Source of the DNA: a virus
Taxonomy: Duplodnaviria > Heunggongvirae > Uroviricota > Caudoviricetes
DNA length: 6,506 nucleotides
IMG/VR virus record: IMGVR_UViG_2531839233_000013
Direction: 5' to 3' (one strand)
A program made the translations under genes and the position numbers. The notes under the pieces were generated by a model. That model was not told the DNA's origin, made no database searches, and worked only from the letters and a program-made list of their open reading frames with translations. Positions 27 through 6,506 of the stretch are shown here, piece by piece; the stretch's first letter is position 1; each line of letters opens with the position of its first letter.

Positions 27-581
27 TCAAAAAGCAATAACTTTTTTCTCTATACCAAAAGCCATAACCATTGGTTTGTACAAAATAAATTCTGCCACCT
101 TTAGCCAATGCTCAATGCGTCTTTCACAGGTTCTTAAACTCCATTCCGGATGTGCATCATTCAGCAATTCAGCCATTTTGCGCTTAGTCATCCCCCGCCC
201 CACATAACGCTGACTCAGAACATTGAGCAGCCCGGGATAACCTGCCAGTACTTCACCAATAACCCTGTCGATTATTAACGCCTCTGAATCGGTACAATGC
301 ACCAGCCAGCTTTTTTGCTTGCCGTTGATCATATCCCGCAAAAAAGCCTCAAGTTTAGGTTTGTCCAGACCTGCTTTTTTCATCCTCCGGAGCGCCTCGT
401 TAATTGCCGTTTTTGTCAGCTTTTTAGAGGTCAGCAACTGGTTGAACATATTTCCCGTCTTACCGCCGCCAATATACGACCAGCGCCCCCACATACGTAG
501 TTTCCCCTGAATCCAGACACTTTCCAGCGTGGTGAGACGAAGGTGCTCTCCGCTTTTTCCTGTGTTCGTTGGGTAAATCAT
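27..581 (-). CDS. Phage late-gene antitermination protein Q-like (quuD / phage-82 type), 184 aa from the preferred start
   Basis: The ORF track gives 224 aa from an ATG at 701, but the in-frame ATG at 579-581 (MIYPTNTG...) overlaps the stop of the upstream gene as ATGA and has AAGGA about 7 nt upstream. The protein has the pattern I recall for DLP12 QuuD-type Q proteins (LRMWGRW, LTSKK, EALRRMKK, LLNVLSQRYVGRGMT) and sits where Q sits in lambdoid nin-Q regions. The stop is TGA at 27-29. Family assignment is from memory. Confidence 0.6.
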   Translation of the reverse strand: MIYPTNTGKSGEHLRLTTLESVWIQGKLRMWGRWSYIGGGKTGNMFNQLLTSKKLTKTAINEALRRMKKAGLDKPKLEAFLRDMINGKQKSWLVHCTDSEALIIDRVIGEVLAGYPGLLNVLSQRYVGRGMTKRKMAELLNDAHPEWSLRTCERRIEHWLKVAEFILYKPMVMAFGIEKKVIAF

Positions 582-868
582 AAATAACCGTCCTTTCTCC
601 AGATCTCTTGTGTGCGAAAAACACCTTCTGCATGCATCAGGCGCAATTCTTCTTTGGTGTAATCGCTGGTTTTTACTCTCCCGTCGATTAAATCGTGGCA
701 TGAGTTACAGGCAATCGCTGCCTGCATATCGTGTGGCTTTATCGCTGTTCCGCACGTTCCCGCCAGCCTGTAATGCGCCAGCACAGAGGTTTCGGGATTG
801 TGATTGCAGTAGCCAGGGATTCTGATCTGGCATATCTGGCCTTTAGCCGCTTTACGTAAATTCACCAT
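578..868 (-). CDS. ybcO: YbcO-like putative nuclease (DUF1364 family), 96 aa
   Basis: The translation MVNLRKAAKGQICQIRIPGYCNHNPETSVLAHYRLAGTCGTAIKPHDMQAAIACNSCHDLIDGR... is nearly colinear with E. coli DLP12 YbcO as I recall it, including the conserved Cys/His cluster. Its ATG at 866-868 overlaps the stop of the upstream gene (TAATG), with GGAG about 10 nt upstream. Confidence 0.8.
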   Translation of the reverse strand: MVNLRKAAKGQICQIRIPGYCNHNPETSVLAHYRLAGTCGTAIKPHDMQAAIACNSCHDLIDGRVKTSDYTKEELRLMHAEGVFRTQEIWRKDGYL

Positions 869-1467: not shown

Positions 1468-1886
1468 TTCTCAATCTCTCGATGGCGCAGTGCAGCAGAT
1501 GCCAGTTGTTCAAGCTAGCACGCAAATTGTAAACCAGAATGCCAGGAAAAAACAAAACCCGCCGAAGCTGGTTGTGTGCGGTTGCGTTGAAGTCTCCTAG
1601 CCAAAGAGTAGCGGTGACCACTCCCCGCCGATAATCTTAGTTGTTTAATTTCGTAAGCTAACTAGGCTAAAAGCTCTCTGTTGTCTGCCTGTTGTACAAT
1701 TAACAAAATGAACAACGAACTAGATATACCAACGCCAGAATGGTGCAACAAATCCCAAACAACACAGCAATGCAACAATAACATATGTTATTTTCCTCTC
1801 ACGGGATTCAGTCCTGAATTCTCATAAAGCTAATCTTTTTTTAAAAACATACTGTTAGATCACATGCACTTTCTTTCTTAACATCG

Positions 1887-1914
1887 TTGACTTCGCATGC
1901 GAAGCGTTTAAAAT
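1887..1914 (+). promoter_or_regulatory. Candidate sigma70 promoter for the ATPase operon: -35 TTGACT (1887-1892), 16-nt spacer, -10 TAAAAT (1909-1914)
   Basis: Hexamers are read directly from the sequence, 52 nt upstream of the ATG at 1967; AGAGAG at 1955-1960 is a plausible RBS. A perfect 14-bp palindrome CTTCGCATGCGAAG (1891-1904) overlaps the -35 and spacer. Confidence 0.4.
1891..1904. promoter_or_regulatory. Perfect 14-bp palindrome CTTCGCATGCGAAG, candidate operator in the ATPase-operon promoter
   Basis: The sequence equals its own reverse complement and lies between the -35 and -10 elements. Confidence 0.35.
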
Positions 1915-1966
1915 CAACAATTTGCACTTAAGGTATTTATTTTCCCAAACACATAGAGAGTAAATT

Positions 1967-3358
1967 ATGACTGAGAACACGACTCCAACAGCAGACTTTA
2001 GTCCTAGTAAAAGATTTTTTGTAAGTATGCTAACTCGAGATATCGACTTAAACGATGCCATACTTGATCTGCTTGATAACTGCGTCGATGGGGCTTTACG
2101 TACAATAAAAGACACAAAAAAAACTTCAAAACCATATGAAGGATTTTATGCGAAACTTACGATTAATAAAGATGTCTTTATTATAGAAGACAATTGCGGA
2201 GGTATCCCTAAAAGCTTCCGAGAATATGCTTTTAAAATGGGACGACCCCATCAAAAAGAAGAAGAAAATGAAGGCACCGTTGGCGTCTATGGTATTGGTA
2301 TGAAAAGAGCCATTTTTAAAATGGGTAGAGATTGCTCAATACAATCGAATAATCCCGATGGCGCATTCACTGTAGATATAACACCTGATTGGATCGATGG
2401 TGATGGTTGGAAAATACCGATGCACGAGAGTGACTATGATAACAAAAATCCAACAGGCACAACTATAGAGATAAAAAAACTCCATTCTAATGTGGCACAA
2501 AAATTTAATGAGAGCACATATCTTACTGATCTCTTTTTACAGATAAAACACTCATTGTCATTTATTATTCAAAAAGGATTTAAAATAGAATTAAATGGAG
2601 TTGTTGTTGAACATAATCCGATTAACATCATAACTGATCATTCTAAAATAGAACCATACATATATAAAGCTAAAATAGACGATGTTGATATCGATTTAGT
2701 TGTTGGCTTCTATAAAAATTTAGAAGATGACAATGATGATGTTTTAGAAAAAAGGAGTTCTGATGATGCTGGATGGACTGTCATTTGCAATGACCGCGTT
2801 GTTCTATATTGTGATAAGACACATCTCACAGGTTGGGGCTTTGCTAATGTACCAAGGTTTCATACCCAATTTATAGCAATTTCTGGGGTTGTTCGCTTTA
2901 CCAGTAAAAACCCAGAAAAATTACCAATAACAACAACGAAACGAGGTGTCGATCTTAGTTCTACATTGTACAATGATGTACGAAATAAAATGATTGAAGG
3001 GATGATGCATTTTATTCGATTCACCAATCAGTGGAAAGGTGAGCATCTTGAAGAAGGGAAAAAATTACTTAAGTCAGCTCAGTCACATGAAGCTCAATCT
3101 TTATTTGAAATTACCCCACAATCAACTCCAGAAGATAAAAAAAATAACTGGTCCAACCCTAATAGAAACAAAAATGAGTGGCGATATACACCTAAGCTGC
3201 CTACCCCAGTAAAAAAAAGCTCTACTGTACGAATAATCTTCACCAGAGAGAAAGAAGATGTTAAAATTTTATCTAAATATTTCTTTGGACATGAAGATGC
3301 TAGCGCTTCTGATGTGGGGATGCAATGCTTTGATACGGTGATTGAAGAGGTGAAGTGA
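1967..3358 (+). CDS. GHKL-superfamily ATPase (MutL/MORC/Hsp90-like Bergerat fold), 463 aa
   Basis: All four Bergerat-fold motifs are present in order: N-box D34-L-L-D-N38-C-V-D41-G-A (compare MutL ELVENSLDAGA and MORC ELxDN), G1 box I-E-D75-N-C-G-G79-I (compare MutL DNGCGI), G2 box G106-V-Y-G109-I-G111, and G164-T-T-I-E-I (compare MutL GTTV). The roughly 260 C-terminal residues are unassigned. Stop is TGA at 3356-3358. Confidence 0.8.
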   Translation: MTENTTPTADFSPSKRFFVSMLTRDIDLNDAILDLLDNCVDGALRTIKDTKKTSKPYEGFYAKLTINKDVFIIEDNCGGIPKSFREYAFKMGRPHQKEEENEGTVGVYGIGMKRAIFKMGRDCSIQSNNPDGAFTVDITPDWIDGDGWKIPMHESDYDNKNPTGTTIEIKKLHSNVAQKFNESTYLTDLFLQIKHSLSFIIQKGFKIELNGVVVEHNPINIITDHSKIEPYIYKAKIDDVDIDLVVGFYKNLEDDNDDVLEKRSSDDAGWTVICNDRVVLYCDKTHLTGWGFANVPRFHTQFIAISGVVRFTSKNPEKLPITTTKRGVDLSSTLYNDVRNKMIEGMMHFIRFTNQWKGEHLEEGKKLLKSAQSHEAQSLFEITPQSTPEDKKNNWSNPNRNKNEWRYTPKLPTPVKKSSTVRIIFTREKEDVKILSKYFFGHEDASASDVGMQCFDTVIEEVK

Positions 3359-4347
3359 TGTCTGGACAATACATTCCCTATCACTTAAGGCATAATAAGT
3401 CTATTGATAGAGAGATTTTTCTCGAAAGCCTAAACCTCTTAAGCAAAAGACTAAATATTCAAGAATATACATATATAGGTTTTGGTGGTCCGATGCTTGA
3501 AGATTTTAGAATCATGCATAATCGTATCGCTCTTTCTGATATGATTTCTCTCGAAGAACAAGAGTCTACTCACATCAGACAAAAATATAATTTGCCTTAT
3601 AATTGTATTGATTGTAAGCTAATATCAGCTCATGACTTTATTCTTGATTATAGTTTTTCTAAACCATCAATAACATGGTTAGACTATGCCTCCCCGAAAA
3701 AAATACAAACGGATCTAGATGATATACACTTACTAAGTACTAAAGTAAGCTCTTTTGATATTTTGAAGGTCACCTTCCCCATAAATCCTAGTTCTTATTA
3801 CCAACGTAGAGTTGGAGAAAGTTTAGATATTTTTAAAGAAGCTTTTATTAATTCATTAAAATCATTGCTTGGGAAAAAGTATCTTGATTTTAATCTTCAG
3901 ATATCAAATGCAGATCTTTCAGATCGTAAGATTAAAGCTCTTTTAATACGAATTATTACAAACGCTTTTAGATCAGCAATAGAACGTGGTCTTTCAGGAC
4001 GTAAGGATAAGATTCAGTATTACCCATTATCCTTAAATCAATATAATGATGGCAGTCATACCATGTTGACAATATCAGGTTTTTTCTCCTCAGAACAAGA
4101 ATATATAGAGTTATCTAAGGCATGCGACCTTTCTAACTGGCAATTTTATTCAACAAATTGGGAAGACGTGCAAGAAATAGCAATACCAACACTAACAATT
4201 AAAGAAAAGATAAATTTAGATAGTAAACTGCCTGATAAAGAAGCATATCAGGCAGCCGCTGAAGAGTTCTCTTTAAACGAAAATGAACGGGATAACTATT
4301 ATAAATACTATAGGTTATACCCTAACTTCCAAAGAATTATGGTTTAA
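3358..4347 (+). CDS. Hypothetical protein, 329 aa, translationally coupled partner of the GHKL ATPase
   Basis: A long ORF with the same AT-rich composition as the ATPase gene. The ATG at 3358 overlaps the ATPase stop (TGATG), with a GAGG core at 3347-3350 about 7 nt upstream; the track's GTG at 3355 is an alternative start. No transmembrane stretch and no motif I can assign. Stop is TAA at 4345-4347. Confidence 0.7.
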   Translation: MSGQYIPYHLRHNKSIDREIFLESLNLLSKRLNIQEYTYIGFGGPMLEDFRIMHNRIALSDMISLEEQESTHIRQKYNLPYNCIDCKLISAHDFILDYSFSKPSITWLDYASPKKIQTDLDDIHLLSTKVSSFDILKVTFPINPSSYYQRRVGESLDIFKEAFINSLKSLLGKKYLDFNLQISNADLSDRKIKALLIRIITNAFRSAIERGLSGRKDKIQYYPLSLNQYNDGSHTMLTISGFFSSEQEYIELSKACDLSNWQFYSTNWEDVQEIAIPTLTIKEKINLDSKLPDKEAYQAAAEEFSLNENERDNYYKYYRLYPNFQRIMV

Positions 4348-5466
4348 ATATTCGGGCTGTACTCTTTTATTTAATAAATTGTACAGCCCCTTTAATATAT
4401 ATTCAGCAACTATTGGTGACACGCTATTTCCTATTTGTCTGAAACTATGCCATTTAGTTACATGAAAGCGAAACCAATCAGGGAAGCCTTGTAATCTAGC
4501 AGCTTCTCTTGGTGTAATCACTCTTGGATGATAAGGGTGGATCGGCCTGACGGCTTGAAAGCTTCCTTTATCTCTAGCGGTTCCCGCCCTTAAAGTCGGG
4601 CAAAAACCATTTGGATCTAATCTTGTAGATCTTGAAATTTTATCAGTTTCCCCAAAAGATAAGGAAGCATAACGCTCTTGGACGATTTTGCTATGTAATG
4701 TTCCGGTACATCCAGATATGATATTATTTTTTAACTTAGCGATCGATTCTGTATCACCAACATTCCGAGGGATCTGCCCCCATAATTTTTCATAAAATCC
4801 CCCTTTTCGATCTTTTTTAATTGTTCGCCAACTCTCAGAGTCTGATTGCCAATTGGCATCGATAATATCTGGTAATCCATACAAAGCATCTTTTACAGTA
4901 ACCGGATCAATCATTTTAGGCATAAATACTTCATCTGAAATATCAAGCTTCAATGATTTTTTTACACCGATAAAAAAATATCTAGTTCGAATAGTTGGAG
5001 CACCATAATCAGATGCTTTTACCTTGATGGGATCAAGAATATCATAATCACCGCTAACCAAATTAAATGCTTTATTTCTAATGCCAGAATATTTCTCTTG
5101 CATAATACCTGGAACATTTTCTGCCAAAAAGAATAATGGCTGTAATTCTGATACTAAACGGTAGAAATGCATGTAAAGCTGATTCCTGCTATCATCAGGA
5201 TTCCCCTTGCCTATTGAACTAAATCCTTGGCACGGAGGACCGCCAATAATACCATCTATGGGCATATCGTTTTTAAAAAAACCCTTAATTATTTCTGCAT
5301 TTAGTAAAGAAACATCTTCTTGGACGTGCAAACTTCTTGGAAAATTAATTGCGTGAGTATTAATAGCATGTTGATCAATTTCAACTGCCATTTTAACATC
5401 AAATCCAGCACGTGCAGCACCAAGACTTAGACCTCCAACGCCAGAAAACAAATCTATTACATTCAT
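4315..5466 (-). CDS. DNA (cytosine-5)-methyltransferase, Dcm-type, 383 aa
   Basis: Canonical C5-MTase motifs: motif I D-L-F7-S-G-V-G-G12 (AdoMet binding), motif IV G-G-P-P78-C79-Q-G-F-S (catalytic Cys), motif VI F-F-L-A-E116-N-V, motif VIII P-T-I-R-T-R-Y-F-F-I-G, motif X R-Q-I-G-N-S-V-S-P. The variable target-recognition region lies between VIII and IX. Confidence 0.92.
   Translation of the reverse strand: MNVIDLFSGVGGLSLGAARAGFDVKMAVEIDQHAINTHAINFPRSLHVQEDVSLLNAEIIKGFFKNDMPIDGIIGGPPCQGFSSIGKGNPDDSRNQLYMHFYRLVSELQPLFFLAENVPGIMQEKYSGIRNKAFNLVSGDYDILDPIKVKASDYGAPTIRTRYFFIGVKKSLKLDISDEVFMPKMIDPVTVKDALYGLPDIIDANWQSDSESWRTIKKDRKGGFYEKLWGQIPRNVGDTESIAKLKNNIISGCTGTLHSKIVQERYASLSFGETDKISRSTRLDPNGFCPTLRAGTARDKGSFQAVRPIHPYHPRVITPREAARLQGFPDWFRFHVTKWHSFRQIGNSVSPIVAEYILKGLYNLLNKRVQPEYLNHNSLEVRV
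4354..4400 (+). terminator. Candidate intrinsic terminator for the ATPase-partner operon
   Basis: A perfect 9-bp inverted repeat GGGCTGTAC (4354-4362) / GTACAGCCC (4381-4389) with an 18-nt AT-rich loop, followed by CTTTAATATAT. It starts 7 nt after the partner stop and lies inside the 3' coding end of the convergent methyltransferase gene. The loop is longer than in a textbook terminator. Confidence 0.35.
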
Positions 5467-5498
5467 ATAGTTGCAACGTCTCTTATTAGTTTCTATGT

Positions 5499-5528
5499 AT
5501 TATAACACAACTGTTCTTGATGTTTTAA
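5499..5528 (-). promoter_or_regulatory. Candidate promoter for the methyltransferase with extended -10 (TGTTATAAT on the minus strand)
   Basis: Plus-strand ATTATAACA at 5499-5507 reads TGTTATAAT on the minus strand, about 33 nt upstream of the ATG at 5466. The -35 is weak (best TTAAAA-like), which is usual for extended -10 promoters. Confidence 0.4.
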
Positions 5529-5728
5529 CCCCATAAGATAACCTCATAAAGGCTATCCCTTGAAAATACCGGATCGCATAAATTTAATCTTTCAAAACTA
5601 CTTGTCTATTAATCGAGCAATTTAAGGTTGTTTTAGTCATGTCGATACCGACATAGTTAACTAAACCCATTTCATCGTCCAACAAATGGGGGTAATACAC
5701 TTTGATTTATAGTCGGGTGGGTTTTTCT

Positions 5729-5764
5729 CTATCTGCCTTTGGTGTTCATGCCCAAGGCAGATAG
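5729..5764. repeat. Near-perfect 13-bp inverted repeat CTATCTGCCTT(T)GG ... CC(C)AAGGCAGATAG with a ~9-nt spacer, at the right island/backbone transition
   Basis: Read directly from the sequence. No U-tract follows on either strand, so it is not a typical intrinsic terminator. Confidence 0.5.
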
Positions 5765-5897
5765 CCTCAAGCACCCGCAGCAATTCTACTTAACTATCCT
5801 TTTCCCGCAAACCGTTTTTATCCCCAGCGGCAAATCGAATACACAACCAGCACCACCGCCATTACTGTTCCTACATTTGCGAATGCTTCAGGCCAGG

Positions 5898-6293
5898 TCA
5901 TTGATTCACCTTCTGCTCAATATTTTTAAGGTCATTTTCCGCATACAGTATTGCAGTTCTTGCTGCCCGCAACCGTGCTTTGGTGTTCTTTTCTTCACGC
6001 TCGAGGCTGGCAACAGATTCTCGGAGCTGATCGTGTCTGTTATGAAGCTGTCTAATCTCTCTCACCACAGCCTCACCATCGTTCGCACACCGCAGAACAT
6101 ACTGAAAAGGGTCCACAACACATCCGCACTGCAAGCACAGGATAACGTGATCCTGTTCATGAACCTCAATGGCCCGATGCTTACAGCTCTGTTGTGTGTA
6201 GTTTTTTCTGCCAGTTACTGTAATGTTCAGCAGCTTCTCTTCATCGCGCTTTGGCTGCACCAGTGTGATGATATTATCGCCTTCATTTTCCAT
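5898..6293 (-). CDS. Phage hypothetical protein, 131 aa, with a Cys/His cluster and a charged C-terminal helix
   Basis: The ATG at 6291-6293 has a strong RBS (AGGAGGT about 7 nt upstream) and overlaps the upstream stop as ATGA; the track's longer 156-aa start at 6368 lacks this support. The sequence contains CKHRAIEVHEQDHVILCLQCGC and an R/E/K-rich tail. Backbone-like G+C. Confidence 0.55.
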   Translation of the reverse strand: MENEGDNIITLVQPKRDEEKLLNITVTGRKNYTQQSCKHRAIEVHEQDHVILCLQCGCVVDPFQYVLRCANDGEAVVREIRQLHNRHDQLRESVASLEREEKNTKARLRAARTAILYAENDLKNIEQKVNQ

Positions 6294-6478
6294 CAGTTCA
6301 CCTCCTGCGGCGGTTCTGGTAGCGGCATCCAGTGTGACGGTTTCCACGACGCACCAGGAATTATCCACCCATCATTAGCGTCAGGATGCCCCGGGATGTA
6401 AGTCGCCCACTTCATTCGCCAGTCACCTTTCCTGTCAAACTCCACGGCAACAAGAACGGCTGTTTTGGTATCCGGCAT
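6293..6478 (-). CDS. Phage hypothetical protein, at least 61 aa, possibly 5'-incomplete
   Basis: The ORF is translationally coupled to the downstream gene (ATGA at 6293). The reading frame stays open upstream of the ATG at 6478 to the window edge at 6506, so the true start may lie outside the window. Confidence 0.45.
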   Translation of the reverse strand: MPDTKTAVLVAVEFDRKGDWRMKWATYIPGHPDANDGWIIPGASWKPSHWMPLPEPPQEVN

Positions 6479-6506
6479 TCGCTCACTACAACTTATCCAA
6501 CCATCC

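What the first reader, a model, noticed from the sequence alone, without database searches (positions are those of the whole stretch)
1967..3358. GHKL ATPase with Asp at the canonical catalytic-Glu position of the N-box, plus an unassigned C-terminal half
In MutL, GyrB, Hsp90 and MORC the N-box is E-x-x-x-N-x-x-D, and the Glu acts as the general base for ATP hydrolysis. Here the equivalent stretch is D34-L-L-D-N38-C-V-D41-G-A, with Asp at that position. The Mg-ligand Asn, the G1 and G2 boxes and the GTT motif are intact. This may mean slow or regulated hydrolysis, making the protein more of an ATP-gated switch than an enzyme with rapid turnover. Residues from about 200 to 463 could hold a transducer-like or DNA-binding domain, but I could not place it.
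Basis: partly seen in the sequence, partly recalled or inferred. Interest (0 to 1): 0.55.

Follow-up and report, generated by a model that had tools for sequence, protein, structure and literature searches.

The report
Asp-type paraMORC ATPase with methyltransferase partner
The gene encodes a MutL/MORC-like ATP-driven switch whose unusual catalytic aspartate is fixed across a large, uncharacterised family; the family always travels with a methyltransferase-fold partner and sits next to DNA-methylase-based phage-defence genes.

Summary
ORF 1967-3358 encodes a 463-aa GHKL protein with D34-L-L-D37-N38-C-V-D41. Profile alignment puts D34 on GyrB E42 and HtpG E34. The Asp is a clade signature, not a quirk of this protein: 174 of 177 aligned relatives have it, and no conserved Glu exists elsewhere. 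D37 (the second catalytic acid), N38, the G2 box, the GT motif and a transducer-loop Lys (K325) are also near-invariant. The G1 box reads D-N-C-G-G.

Residues about 196-332 fold as an Hsp90/GyrB/MORC-type transducer, so this is a complete GHL ATPase module and probably hydrolysis-competent.

The context is the main result. The ATPase is translationally coupled to a class-I SAM methyltransferase-fold protein (Pfam Methyltransf_35), whose fold resembles RsmD/Trm1. This pair lies beside a C5 DNA methyltransferase in about 70 of 80 genomes and 72 of 73 viral contigs. In a large proteobacterial clade it sits inside DISARM class 1 operons. Sister proteins with the same Asp are fused to a HEPN (Ymh) RNase.

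I read it as the ATP-switch subunit of an undescribed methylation-linked defence module with no recognisable nuclease, carried here as a low-GC moron in an EHEC lambdoid prophage. Function and ATPase kinetics are inferred, not shown.

The parts
1650..5750 (.). Low-GC island (32-38% GC against about 48-52% in the flanks) holding the three-gene module. It is a moron in the nin/Q region of a Rac-like lambdoid prophage.
   Evidence: Composition profile. Annotation of the identical locus in E. coli SD134209. Found in 173 of 5426 complete E. coli genomes, always on the chromosome and at least 99% identical. Other prophages carry hokD at the same site.
1887..1914 (+). Sigma-70-like promoter candidate (TTGACT-16-TAAAAT) about 50 nt upstream of the ATPase start codon.
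   Evidence: Consensus scan. The number of such sites in the region does not exceed that in shuffled sequence, so this is only a candidate.
1967..3358 (+). GHL-type (paraMORC-like) ATPase of 463 aa: Bergerat fold, transducer domain and helical C-terminal extension.
   Evidence: phrog_20521, unknown function. No PADLOC or NCBIfam family.
2033..2044 (+). Invariant T23-R24-D25-I26 in the N-terminal strap region just before helix 1. Role unknown.
   Evidence: Invariant in alignment A1. T 165, R 167 and D 175 of about 179 in the extended alignment.
2066..2092 (+). N-box D34-L-L-D37-N38-C-V-D41-G. D34 is at the general-base (N-4) position, D37 is the second catalytic acid (N-1), and N38 is the Mg ligand.
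   Evidence: Translation. hhalign to GyrB E42/D45/N46 and HtpG E34/N38. D34 in 174 of 177, D37 in 176 of 177, N38 in 176 of 177.
2189..2206 (+). G1 box variant D75-N-C77-G-G-I. D75 is the adenine-binding Asp; the first Gly of D-x-G-x-G is replaced by Cys.
   Evidence: Aligned to GyrB D-D-G-R-G-I-P and MutL D-N-G-C-G-I. C77 in 178 of 180.
2282..2299 (+). G2 box G106-V-Y-G109-I-G111 (ATP lid), followed by invariant K113-R114.
   Evidence: This is also the stretch that weakly matches MORC3 and MORC4 in the PDB.
2456..2461 (+). Motif IV, G164-T165.
   Evidence: G 189 and T 179 of about 193.
2552..2962 (+). Transducer / S5-like middle domain, residues about 196-332.
   Evidence: Foldseek aligns 370-430 columns of the model with the Hsp90/TRAP1 N+M domains, the ParE ATPase+transducer, and the SMCHD1 and MORC2 ATPase modules, at E 3e-12 to 1e-10.
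2771..2803 (+). G269-W-T-V-I-C-N-D-R277-V-V. It fits the GhXhhpXXRhl pattern that Iyer et al. 2008 give as the S5-domain signature of MORCs.
   Evidence: Pattern quoted from PMC2292703. G269 in 194 of 194, N275 in 192, R277 in 193. Positional equivalence to MORC is not verified.
2921..2950 (+). Loop L-P-I-T-T-T-K325-R326-G-V between the last transducer strand and the long helix. It is the candidate 'switch' Lys/Arg that reaches the gamma-phosphate.
   Evidence: Greedy hhalign places it within 1-2 residues of GyrB Q-T-K337 and the HtpG L-P-L-N-V-S-R loop. K325 in 186 of 188.
2963..3355 (+). Helical C-terminal extension, residues 333-463, with family-specific conserved W356-K357, L411-P412 and G451..F455. 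Unassigned; possibly a partner or dimer interface.
   Evidence: Secondary structure of the model. Invariant columns.
3356..3360 (+). TGATG: the ATPase stop codon overlaps the ATG of the downstream gene, indicating translational coupling.
   Evidence: A 4-nt start/stop overlap is the commonest junction in the 73 related loci.
3358..4347 (+). Methyltransf_35 (PF20553) protein of 329 aa from the ATG, with a class-I SAM-methyltransferase fold. It is the obligate partner of the ATPase.
4315..5466 (-). C5 cytosine DNA methyltransferase of 383 aa, convergent with the partner gene and overlapping its 3' end by 33 nt.
   Evidence: PF00145 E 2.6e-61 covering 1-361 with no extra domain. PADLOC MTase_II E 2e-98. 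Orthologues at 50-66% identity travel with the pair across phyla.
5499..5528 (-). Promoter-like site (TTAAAA-18-TG-TATAAT) upstream of the methyltransferase gene.
   Evidence: Candidate only.

Best explanation
ORF 1967-3358 encodes a paraMORC-type GHL ATPase: a Bergerat ATP-binding fold, a transducer domain and a helical tail. Its catalytic carboxylate at the N-4 position is Asp (D34) instead of Glu. This Asp is the ancestral state of a large clade. It comes with an intact second acid (D37), Mg-Asn (N38), ATP lid and transducer Lys (K325). The protein is therefore most likely a hydrolysis-competent but slow ATP-dimerising clamp or switch, like MutL, Hsp90 and MORC, and not a dead ATP binder.

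It acts as one half of an obligate, translationally coupled two-protein module. The other half is the downstream Methyltransf_35 protein, a SAM-methyltransferase fold closest to the nucleic-acid amino-methyltransferases RsmD and Trm1.

The module is attached to immunity systems based on DNA methyltransferases. In most lineages, including this prophage, it sits next to a co-inherited C5 cytosine methyltransferase, sometimes with Vsr. In a large proteobacterial clade it sits inside DISARM class 1 operons. Sister ATPases with the same Asp carry a fused HEPN (Ymh) RNase in place of the separate partner.

By this displacement logic the ATPase is the sensor/switch, the methyltransferase-fold partner is the output (effector or marking enzyme), and the C5 methyltransferase marks self DNA.

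Shown: residue equivalence, conservation, folds, gene linkage. Inferred: ATP hydrolysis, complex formation, a defence role, substrates.
For: Residue equivalence: D34/D37/N38 align with GyrB E42/D45/N46 and HtpG E34/N38.

Conservation: D34 in 174 of 177, D37 in 176 of 177, K325 in 186 of 188, across 34 homologues, 149 representatives at 50% identity and remote paralogues. Relatives at 23-38% identity all keep Asp: Pf phage, Sinorhizobium, Microvirga, HEPN-fused and long forms. A neighbouring GHKL of a different family has Glu, and one family member has reverted to Glu (P0317).

Fold: GHKL plus transducer.

Mechanistic precedent: in MutL and GyrB the N-1 acid shares the general-base role (PMC13614785).

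Linkage: the partner lies directly downstream in 73-75 of 80 genome loci, usually with a 4-nt overlap, and a C5 methyltransferase lies within 2.5 kb in about 70 of 80. Among 73 viral contigs, 67 carry the full trio. Searches started from the partner recover the same trio.

Defence context: the pair lies between drmMI and drmA in DISARM class 1 operons of Microvirga, Ferribacterium and Burkholderia, and that clade has more than 120 clusters. Other occurrences are a P4-like satellite hotspot with ScoMcrA-HNH and Abi_2, the accessory region of a Pf inovirus, and a prophage moron site that elsewhere holds hokD.

Sister fusion: ATPase plus Ymh/HEPN, E 7e-34, noted earlier as a paraMORC-Ymh fusion in R-M neighbourhoods (PMC3710099).

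Partner enzyme: its SAM-binding and catalytic motifs are 100% conserved.
Against: There is no biochemical or genetic test of any kind. No nuclease or other classical effector is recognisable in the trio, so a restriction-like mechanism has no obvious executing step. Six to eight cyanobacterial loci have the pair without an adjacent C5 methyltransferase, and a few have the ATPase alone, so the three genes are not strictly interdependent. PADLOC (2023) does not list either protein. Carriage by temperate and filamentous prophages is equally compatible with a phage-serving role such as self-methylation or anti-restriction. The register of K325 against GyrB K337 and the Hsp90 Arg is uncertain by 1-2 residues. 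I could not inspect model coordinates.
Confidence: 0.55

Rival explanations
1. Neutral conservative substitution. The Asp is simply an isofunctional replacement of Glu in an ordinary MutL/MORC-like ATPase with ordinary GHL kinetics, and carries no special regulatory meaning.
For: Every other catalytic element is intact. One family member carries Glu at this position in an otherwise identical N-box (P0317), so the two are interchangeable in evolution. The second acid can act as base in MutL and GyrB.
Against: A frequency of 174 of 177 over sequences as distant as 23% identity shows strong purifying selection for Asp specifically. Under neutrality a D/E mix would be expected. The change co-occurs with other clade-specific active-site changes: Cys in the G1 box and the invariant T-R-D strap.
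Confidence: 0.25
2. The trio is a cryptic Type II-like restriction-modification system. The C5 methyltransferase protects host DNA, and ATPase plus partner together form an ATP-dependent restriction enzyme whose nuclease site is unrecognised.
For: The gene order M-X-Y matches, the same methyltransferase lineage is co-inherited, and Vsr is present in 29 of 80 loci. There is mobile-element and defence-island context. paraMORCs were predicted to act in R-M systems (PMC2292703).
Against: No PD-(D/E)xK, HNH, PLD, GIY-YIG or other nuclease signature appears in any of the three proteins by Pfam, PADLOC, NCBIfam or fold search. The residues conserved in the partner are those of a SAM methyltransferase. 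The pair exists without an adjacent methyltransferase in several cyanobacteria. In DISARM operons the nuclease candidate is supplied by other genes.
Confidence: 0.15
3. A module that serves the phage. The prophage uses the C5 methyltransferase, and perhaps the second methyltransferase loaded by the ATPase clamp, to modify its own DNA and escape host restriction. It is not a host defence.
For: The module sits in the nin region of a lambdoid prophage, a place where orphan methyltransferases are common (established knowledge; context). It also occurs in a Pf inovirus and in 73 IMG/VR contigs. Both proteins have PHROG families.
Against: Most of the 80 genome loci show no phage context. The pair is embedded in DISARM operons and in a satellite defence hotspot. 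The sister family is fused to a HEPN RNase, a toxin-type effector. No hit was found by DNA in the collection of sequenced phage genomes, and only one by protein.
Confidence: 0.1
4. The GHKL domain is a phosphotransferase (kinase) rather than an ATPase. This would be like histidine kinases and SpoIIAB-type kinases, where the N-4 Glu is commonly replaced. It would phosphorylate the partner or a nucleic acid.
For: The canonical Glu is absent. In histidine kinases it is typically replaced (PMC13614785). GHKL kinases do act in bacterial immunity, for example CapK (PMC13373217).
Against: The architecture is GHL-type, with a transducer domain and a conserved Lys loop, which kinases lack. The best fold matches are Hsp90, GyrB/ParE, SMCHD1 and MORC2, not kinases. 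The second catalytic acid is retained. The Pfam match is to HATPase_c_3, and the match to the kinase-type HATPase_c is below threshold.
Confidence: 0.05

Closest known systems
paraMORC / prokaryotic MORC GHKL ATPases of restriction-modification neighbourhoods (Iyer, Abhiman & Aravind 2008, PMC2292703)
   Same: An N-terminal GHKL domain plus an S5/transducer domain with a conserved basic residue. Sporadic, laterally mobile distribution across bacteria and archaea. Neighbourhoods rich in C5 cytosine methyltransferases and Vsr. The S5-domain pattern GhXhhpXXRhl is matched by GWTVICNDRVV. The only PDB sequence hits are MORC3 and MORC4, and they are weak.
   Different: Asp replaces Glu at the general-base position, and Cys sits in the G1 box. 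The fixed partner is a Methyltransf_35 protein, not an SF-II helicase or nuclease. I could not assign it to any of paraMORC1-5 from the published text: there is no ExxxH motif, RE-fold domain, TIR domain or HxH domain.
paraMORC-Ymh (HEPN) fusions in R-M neighbourhoods (Anantharaman et al. 2013, PMC3710099), proposed analogues of PrrC/RloC
   Same: The same Asp-type ATPase clade: the L071 paralogue has F-D-L-I-D-N-A-I-D, the C-N-D-R motif and the N-T-A-K loop. It lies directly downstream of a C5 methyltransferase, and in L071 it shares an operon with a copy of the present pair.
   Different: There the output is a fused HEPN RNase. Here it is a separately encoded SAM-methyltransferase-fold protein, and no RNase is present.
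DISARM class 1 (DrmD, DrmMI, DrmA, DrmB, DrmC)
   Same: A clade of the pair at 38% identity to the window ATPase is encoded between drmMI and drmA in such operons, with overlapping or abutting genes. Both rely on DNA methylation for self-marking.
   Different: The window has none of DrmA, DrmB, DrmC or DrmD. The DISARM papers I could read do not mention the pair.
MutL / GyrB / Hsp90 ATPase modules
   Same: The fold and the order of motifs: N-box, G1, G2, GT and transducer loop. There are two acidic residues at N-4 and N-1, as in MutL E29/E32 and GyrB E42/D45.
   Different: Asp at N-4. No MutL C-terminal endonuclease or dimerisation domain, no Toprim, no Hsp90 C-terminal domain. There is a family-specific helical tail.
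C5-methyltransferase + HATPase_c_3-HEF_HK-HATPase_c + Response_reg_2 clusters (Bellieny-Rabelo et al. 2021, PMC8011034)
   Same: A three-gene theme of a C5 methyltransferase followed by a paraMORC-related GHKL protein and a small partner.
   Different: The domain architecture and the partner differ. No HEF_HK or receiver-like domain is present here.

Membership tests
GHKL (Bergerat-fold) ATPase superfamily | Motif I Asn that ligates Mg2+-ATP | tested here: met
   N38. Aligned to GyrB N46 and HtpG N38. 176 of 177.
GHKL (Bergerat-fold) ATPase superfamily | General-base Glu four residues before the Asn | tested here: not met
   Asp (D34) in this protein and in 174 of 177 relatives. No alternative conserved Glu.
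GHKL (Bergerat-fold) ATPase superfamily | Second acidic residue at N-1 (MutL E32 / GyrB D45-D51), shown to share the base function | tested here: met
   D37, 176 of 177. Criterion taken from PMC13614785.
GHKL (Bergerat-fold) ATPase superfamily | G1 box D-x-G-x-G with the adenine-binding Asp | tested here: inconclusive
   D75 is present and aligned to GyrB D73, but the first Gly is Cys (D-N-C-G-G), 178 of 180.
GHKL (Bergerat-fold) ATPase superfamily | G2 box G-x-x-G-x-G (ATP lid) and motif IV G-T | tested here: met
   G106/G109/G111 and G164-T165.
GHKL (Bergerat-fold) ATPase superfamily | Pfam HATPase_c_3 above the gathering score | tested here: met
   37.5 bits against 25.
GHL subgroup (GyrB/Hsp90/MutL/MORC): ATPase + transducer | Second domain with the S5-like transducer fold | tested here: met
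   Foldseek aligns 370-430 columns to two-domain modules of Hsp90/TRAP1, ParE, SMCHD1 and MORC2.
GHL subgroup (GyrB/Hsp90/MutL/MORC): ATPase + transducer | Conserved Lys/Arg on the transducer loop that contacts the gamma-phosphate | tested here: inconclusive
   K325 (186 of 188) and R326 lie in the equivalent loop. The alignment register against GyrB K337 and the HtpG Arg is uncertain by 1-2 residues, and I could not measure distances in the model.
MORC family sensu Iyer 2008 | S5-domain motif GhXhhpXXRhl | tested here: inconclusive
   GWTVICNDRVV fits the pattern, and G, N and R are invariant. No sequence-level match of this region to solved MORCs.
MORC family sensu Iyer 2008 | Neighbourhood with an SF-II helicase (about 70% of prokaryotic MORC operons) | tested here: not met
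   No helicase in the window or in the 80 closest loci. Helicases appear only in the DISARM-embedded clade.
Type II restriction-modification system | Cognate DNA methyltransferase | tested here: met
   C5 methyltransferase at 4315-5466.
Type II restriction-modification system | Recognisable endonuclease | tested here: not met
   None found in the three proteins or as a recurrent neighbour. The only recurrent extra gene is Vsr, in 29 of 80 loci.
DISARM | Core DrmA (helicase), DrmB (DUF1998/MZB) and DrmC (PLD) | tested here: not met
   Absent from the window and from the 80 closest loci. Present around the related clade.
Class I SAM-dependent methyltransferases (the partner, Methyltransf_35) | Rossmann-like MTase fold with a Gly-rich motif I, an acidic motif II and an Asp in motif IV | tested here: met
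Class I SAM-dependent methyltransferases (the partner, Methyltransf_35) | O-methyltransferase chemistry, as the Pfam and NCBI name states | not testable with these tools
   The nearest structures are N- and C-methyltransferases acting on RNA, and a K-D-K-E tetrad is not conserved. The substrate is unknown.

The most novel reading that the evidence does not exclude
The Asp-type paraMORC and its Methyltransf_35 partner form a nuclease-free immune effector. The ATPase clamps on DNA that lacks the cognate methyl mark (5mC from the linked methyltransferase, or m6A from DrmMI in DISARM). Through ATP-driven dimerisation it licenses the RsmD/Trm1-like methyltransferase to methylate a nucleic acid, either tRNA/rRNA or the invading DNA. 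Infection would then be aborted or silenced by methylation rather than by cleavage. This would be the functional counterpart of the HEPN RNase fused to the sister ATPases, and a prokaryotic parallel to MORC/SMCHD1-type silencing coupled to DNA methylation.
Probability: 0.2. Interest if true: 0.85.

Novelty: new variant of a known kind. Interest (0 to 1): 0.55.

Why it matters
If the reading is right, there are three consequences.

1. A clade of at least a thousand sequence clusters of GHL ATPases runs on an Asp/Asp catalytic pair instead of Glu/acid. That is a natural experiment for the two-carboxylate mechanism just proposed for MutL and GyrB.

2. A widespread, unnamed two-gene module (ATPase plus methyltransferase-fold protein) is an accessory or stand-alone component of methylation-based immunity. 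It occurs in EHEC prophages, Pf phages of Pseudomonas, P4-like satellites and DISARM operons, yet defence-system catalogues do not list it.

3. The module has no nuclease. Its mode of action would therefore differ from classical restriction and could shed light on how eukaryotic MORC and SMCHD1 ATPases came to work with DNA methylation.

The Asp substitution alone, without the context, is a modest curiosity.

Tried and rejected
- Sequence search of the full protein and of a profile against the PDB gave nothing, or only weak MORC3/MORC4 hits restricted to the G1-G2 region. The transducer region alone, as a single sequence and as a 13-sequence profile, found nothing meaningful. MORC membership therefore could not be settled by sequence.
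- hhalign against single E. coli MutL, GyrB and HtpG sequences has low formal probability (1-7%), because the templates are single sequences. I rely on it only for the unambiguous N-box and G1 register.
- I looked for a hidden nuclease. D276 and D283 in the transducer looked like metal ligands, but D276 is Gly, Glu or Asn in remote relatives, so I rejected the idea.
- I considered a 2'-O-methyltransferase K-D-K-E tetrad in the partner (K14, D109, K137). K137 is Leu, Ile or Arg in remote homologues, so I rejected it.
- PADLOC, NCBIfam and relaxed Pfam scans gave no further family for either protein.
- Literature searches for the Pfam name, the RefSeq accessions, and combinations of GHKL or HATPase_c_3 with methyltransferase and defence found no description of the pair. 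CapK GHKL kinases and WonAB/VcSduA are unrelated architectures.
- Conservation of the target-recognition region of the C5 methyltransferase was examined to see whether specificity is fixed. The result was intermediate and not informative.
- The promoter and terminator scan was not above chance.
Full report
**Where the window comes from.** The 6.5-kb window is identical to a stretch of a Rac-like lambdoid prophage found in 173 of 5426 complete E. coli genomes. Many of these are EHEC/STEC of serotypes O157, O111 and others. The match is always chromosomal and at least 99% identical. The flanks are the phage late-regulation region: a Q-like DUF1133 gene, YbcO/DUF1364 and DUF1367 on the left, and small phage ORFs on the right. 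Between about 1650 and 5750 lies a low-GC island, 32-38% against about 50% in the flanks. It holds three genes:
- the GHKL ORF of the finding (1967-3358, +);
- a Pfam Methyltransf_35 gene (3358-4347, +);
- a convergent C5 cytosine DNA methyltransferase (4315-5466, -).

In other prophages the same site carries hokD, so this is a variable moron locus.

**Checking the observation.** The ORF and the motifs are as described. Translation gives D34-L-L-D37-N38-C-V-D41-G, G106-V-Y-G-I-G and G164-T-T. Pfam HATPase_c_3 is matched above threshold. Two corrections are needed. The G1 box is D-N-C-G-G, with Cys in place of the first Gly of D-x-G-x-G. Only G-T of 'GTT' is conserved.

**Is D34 the equivalent of the catalytic Glu?** Yes. 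I took real MutL, GyrB and HtpG sequences from E. coli K-12. Profile alignment of a 34-member family alignment places D-A-I-L-D34-L-L-D37-N38-C-V-D41 on GyrB H-M-V-F-E42-V-V-D45-N46-A-I-D49. It places the same stretch on HtpG R-E34-L-I-S-N38-A-S-D41.

**Is the Asp peculiar to this protein?** No. The family is large. More than 5430 clusters at 90% identity share words with the query. An exhaustive profile search of 1.84 billion representatives found 2878 at E<=1e-3 and 1034 at E<=1e-30. I combined the 34 homologues, 149 representatives and remote relatives into one alignment:
- D34 is present in 174 of 177;
- D37 in 176 of 177;
- N38 in 176 of 177;
- D75 in 178 of 179.

Relatives down to 23-38% identity all keep Asp. 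These include the Microvirga plasmid, Pseudomonas phage PfAC20, Sinorhizobium pSymA, second paralogues in the same loci, and long forms in prophages. One member has Glu in an otherwise identical N-box (P0317). An unrelated GHKL protein encoded next to one of the loci has the canonical A-E-F-I-D-N-S-I-D. The Asp is thus a selected clade signature. It is accompanied by other clade-specific features: C77 in the G1 box, the invariant T23-R24-D25 strap, and C274-N275-x-R277.

**The C-terminal half.** An AlphaFold2 model built on the alignment has mean pLDDT 82. Foldseek against the PDB aligns 370-430 columns to two-domain ATPase modules, at E 3e-12 to 1e-10. The targets are Hsp90/TRAP1 N+M, topoisomerase IV ParE, SMCHD1 and MORC2. 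Residues about 196-332 are therefore a transducer (S5-like) domain.

The loop L-P-I-T-T-T-K325-R326-G lies between the last strand and the long helix. It falls within 1-2 residues of GyrB Q-T-K337 and of the Hsp90-type L-P-L-N-V-S-R catalytic loop in greedy alignments. K325 is present in 186 of 188 sequences. The strand G269-W-T-V-I-C-N-D-R-V-V fits the GhXhhpXXRhl pattern that Iyer et al. give as the MORC signature. The only sequence-level PDB hits are MORC3 and MORC4, and they are weak. I could not confirm positional equivalence. Residues 333-463 are helical and specific to the family.

**What the Asp means.** A 2026 study of MutL and GyrB shows three things (PMC13614785). The N-4 Glu mainly positions the attacking water and supports ATP binding. 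The N-1 acid (MutL E32, GyrB D51 in Aquifex) shares the general-base role. One carboxylate at either site suffices for hydrolysis. Wild-type rates are already only 0.65-2.4 per min.

Here both positions are Asp and both are near-invariant, and the lid and the transducer Lys are intact. The simplest reading is a hydrolysis-competent, slow, ATP-gated clamp, which is what every GHL ATPase is. Whether the shorter side chain slows or gates hydrolysis further cannot be decided without assays.

**Gene linkage.** In 80 genomes from at least a dozen phyla and one methanogen, the partner follows the ATPase directly in 73-75. The junction is mostly a 4-nt overlap. A C5 methyltransferase lies within 2.5 kb in about 70 of the 80. 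It is usually upstream on the same strand, and in about 14 loci it is downstream and convergent, as here. It is mostly the same lineage, at 50-66% identity to the window protein. Vsr is present in 29 of the 80, and nothing else recurs. In IMG/VR, 67 of 73 contigs carry the full trio. Searches started from distant partner homologues return the same trio. One is in Leptospira. Another is in a P4-like satellite hotspot beside a ScoMcrA-HNH enzyme and Abi_2. PfAC20, a Pseudomonas inovirus, has it as ORF1-3.

There are exceptions. Several cyanobacteria have the pair without an adjacent methyltransferase. One cyanobacterial lineage has the ATPase alone, or with the methyltransferase, in a conserved housekeeping context. 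In Sinorhizobium the partner is split by an IS66 element.

**Two informative relatives.** First, a clade at 38% identity to the window ATPase comprises more than 120 clusters that are at least 79% identical to each other across alpha- and beta-proteobacteria. It places the pair between drmMI (an MmeI-like methyltransferase) and drmA in DISARM class 1 operons of Microvirga, Ferribacterium and Burkholderia, with abutting genes. In Burkholderia a C5 methyltransferase and Vsr lie upstream as well.

Second, sister ATPases with the same Asp N-box lack the partner. Instead they carry a C-terminal Ymh/HEPN domain (PF09509, E 7e-34) or another 170-residue tail, again just downstream of a C5 methyltransferase. 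The HEPN fusion was noted in 2013 as a paraMORC-Ymh architecture in R-M neighbourhoods, proposed to be analogous to the anticodon nucleases PrrC and RloC (PMC3710099).

**Interpretation.** The ATPase belongs to the paraMORC radiation of Iyer et al.. It forms a distinct Asp-type clade whose output module can be a fused HEPN RNase or a separate methyltransferase-fold protein. The clade is tied to DNA-methyltransferase-based self-marking, by a C5 methyltransferase or by DISARM. I therefore propose the following roles: the ATPase is the ATP-driven sensor/switch, the partner is the output, and the C5 methyltransferase marks self. No nuclease is detectable, so a classical restriction mechanism is not supported. 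The rival readings are a neutral substitution, cryptic R-M, phage self-protection and a kinase. They are weighed in the rival-explanations section. None of the searched literature, PADLOC or NCBIfam describes the pair. PHROGs lists both proteins as unknown.

**Verdict.** The Asp alone is a modest point. The conserved, unnamed ATPase-methyltransferase module and its links to DISARM and HEPN-fused relatives make the locus a worthwhile experimental target. Novelty: a new variant of a known kind. Interest: 0.55.

Noticed in passing
window 3358-4347: The gene annotated 'O-methyltransferase' (PF20553) has RNA N-methyltransferases (RsmD-like, Trm1, RlmI) as its nearest solved structures. Its invariant motif IV is W-x-D-Y, not an O-methyltransferase signature, so the database name may be misleading.
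   Followed up: partly
window 1650-5750 and flanks 868-1620 / 5800-6506: In other E. coli lambdoid prophages the same flanks (DUF1367 ... DUF551) enclose a Hok/Gef (hokD) toxin gene instead of the trio. The site is a variable cargo slot.
   Followed up: partly
L085 2868-15401; L088; L090/L091: DISARM class 1 operons in Microvirga, Ferribacterium and Burkholderia carry the ATPase-partner pair between drmMI and drmA. The ATPase in this clade is unusually conserved, at least 79% identity across genera. Ferribacterium also has an SLFN-like helicase and an unknown 595-aa gene in the operon.
   Followed up: partly
L071 5210-6850; L163 5974-7719 (also L158, L159, L161, L162): Sister Asp-type ATPases are fused to a Ymh/HEPN domain (L071) or to an unassigned tail of about 170 residues with a conserved L-N-S-A-A-H-N motif (prophage contigs). 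Each lies downstream of a C5 methyltransferase and has no partner gene.
   Followed up: partly
L028, L039, L063, L078, L081, L006: In one cyanobacterial lineage (Leptolyngbya/Phormidesmis/Nodosilinea-like) the ATPase sits in a conserved housekeeping context (cinA-like, aroQ and neighbours). The partner is absent, and the C5 methyltransferase is sometimes absent too. L006 has two tandem ATPase copies. This may be a domesticated or decaying version.
   Followed up: no
L087 5926-11071: On Sinorhizobium meliloti pSymA the partner gene is interrupted by an IS66-family transposase, leaving the ATPase intact.
   Followed up: no
P0317 (representative library): The only family member found with Glu at the N-4 position has I-I-E-L-L-D-N-C-V-D-G. 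It is a natural D-to-E revertant that could serve as a comparison protein.
   Followed up: no
window 2033-2044, 2081-2083, 2195-2197, 2786-2788: There are clade-specific invariant residues of unknown role near the ATP site: the T23-R24-D25 strap, C39 (Ser in remote relatives), C77 in the G1 box and C274 in the transducer strand.
   Followed up: no
L166 2240-9177: In a P4-like satellite (integrase, AlpA, Ash, primase) the trio is flanked by a ScoMcrA-type SBD-HNH enzyme and an Abi_2 protein. This looks like a compact defence hotspot.
   Followed up: no
window 27-701 (-): The longest ORF for the Q-like DUF1133 protein (224 aa) extends upstream of the RefSeq-annotated start (184 aa) and overlaps the end of the YbcO/DUF1364 gene (578-868). 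This is only a start-codon ambiguity.
   Followed up: no
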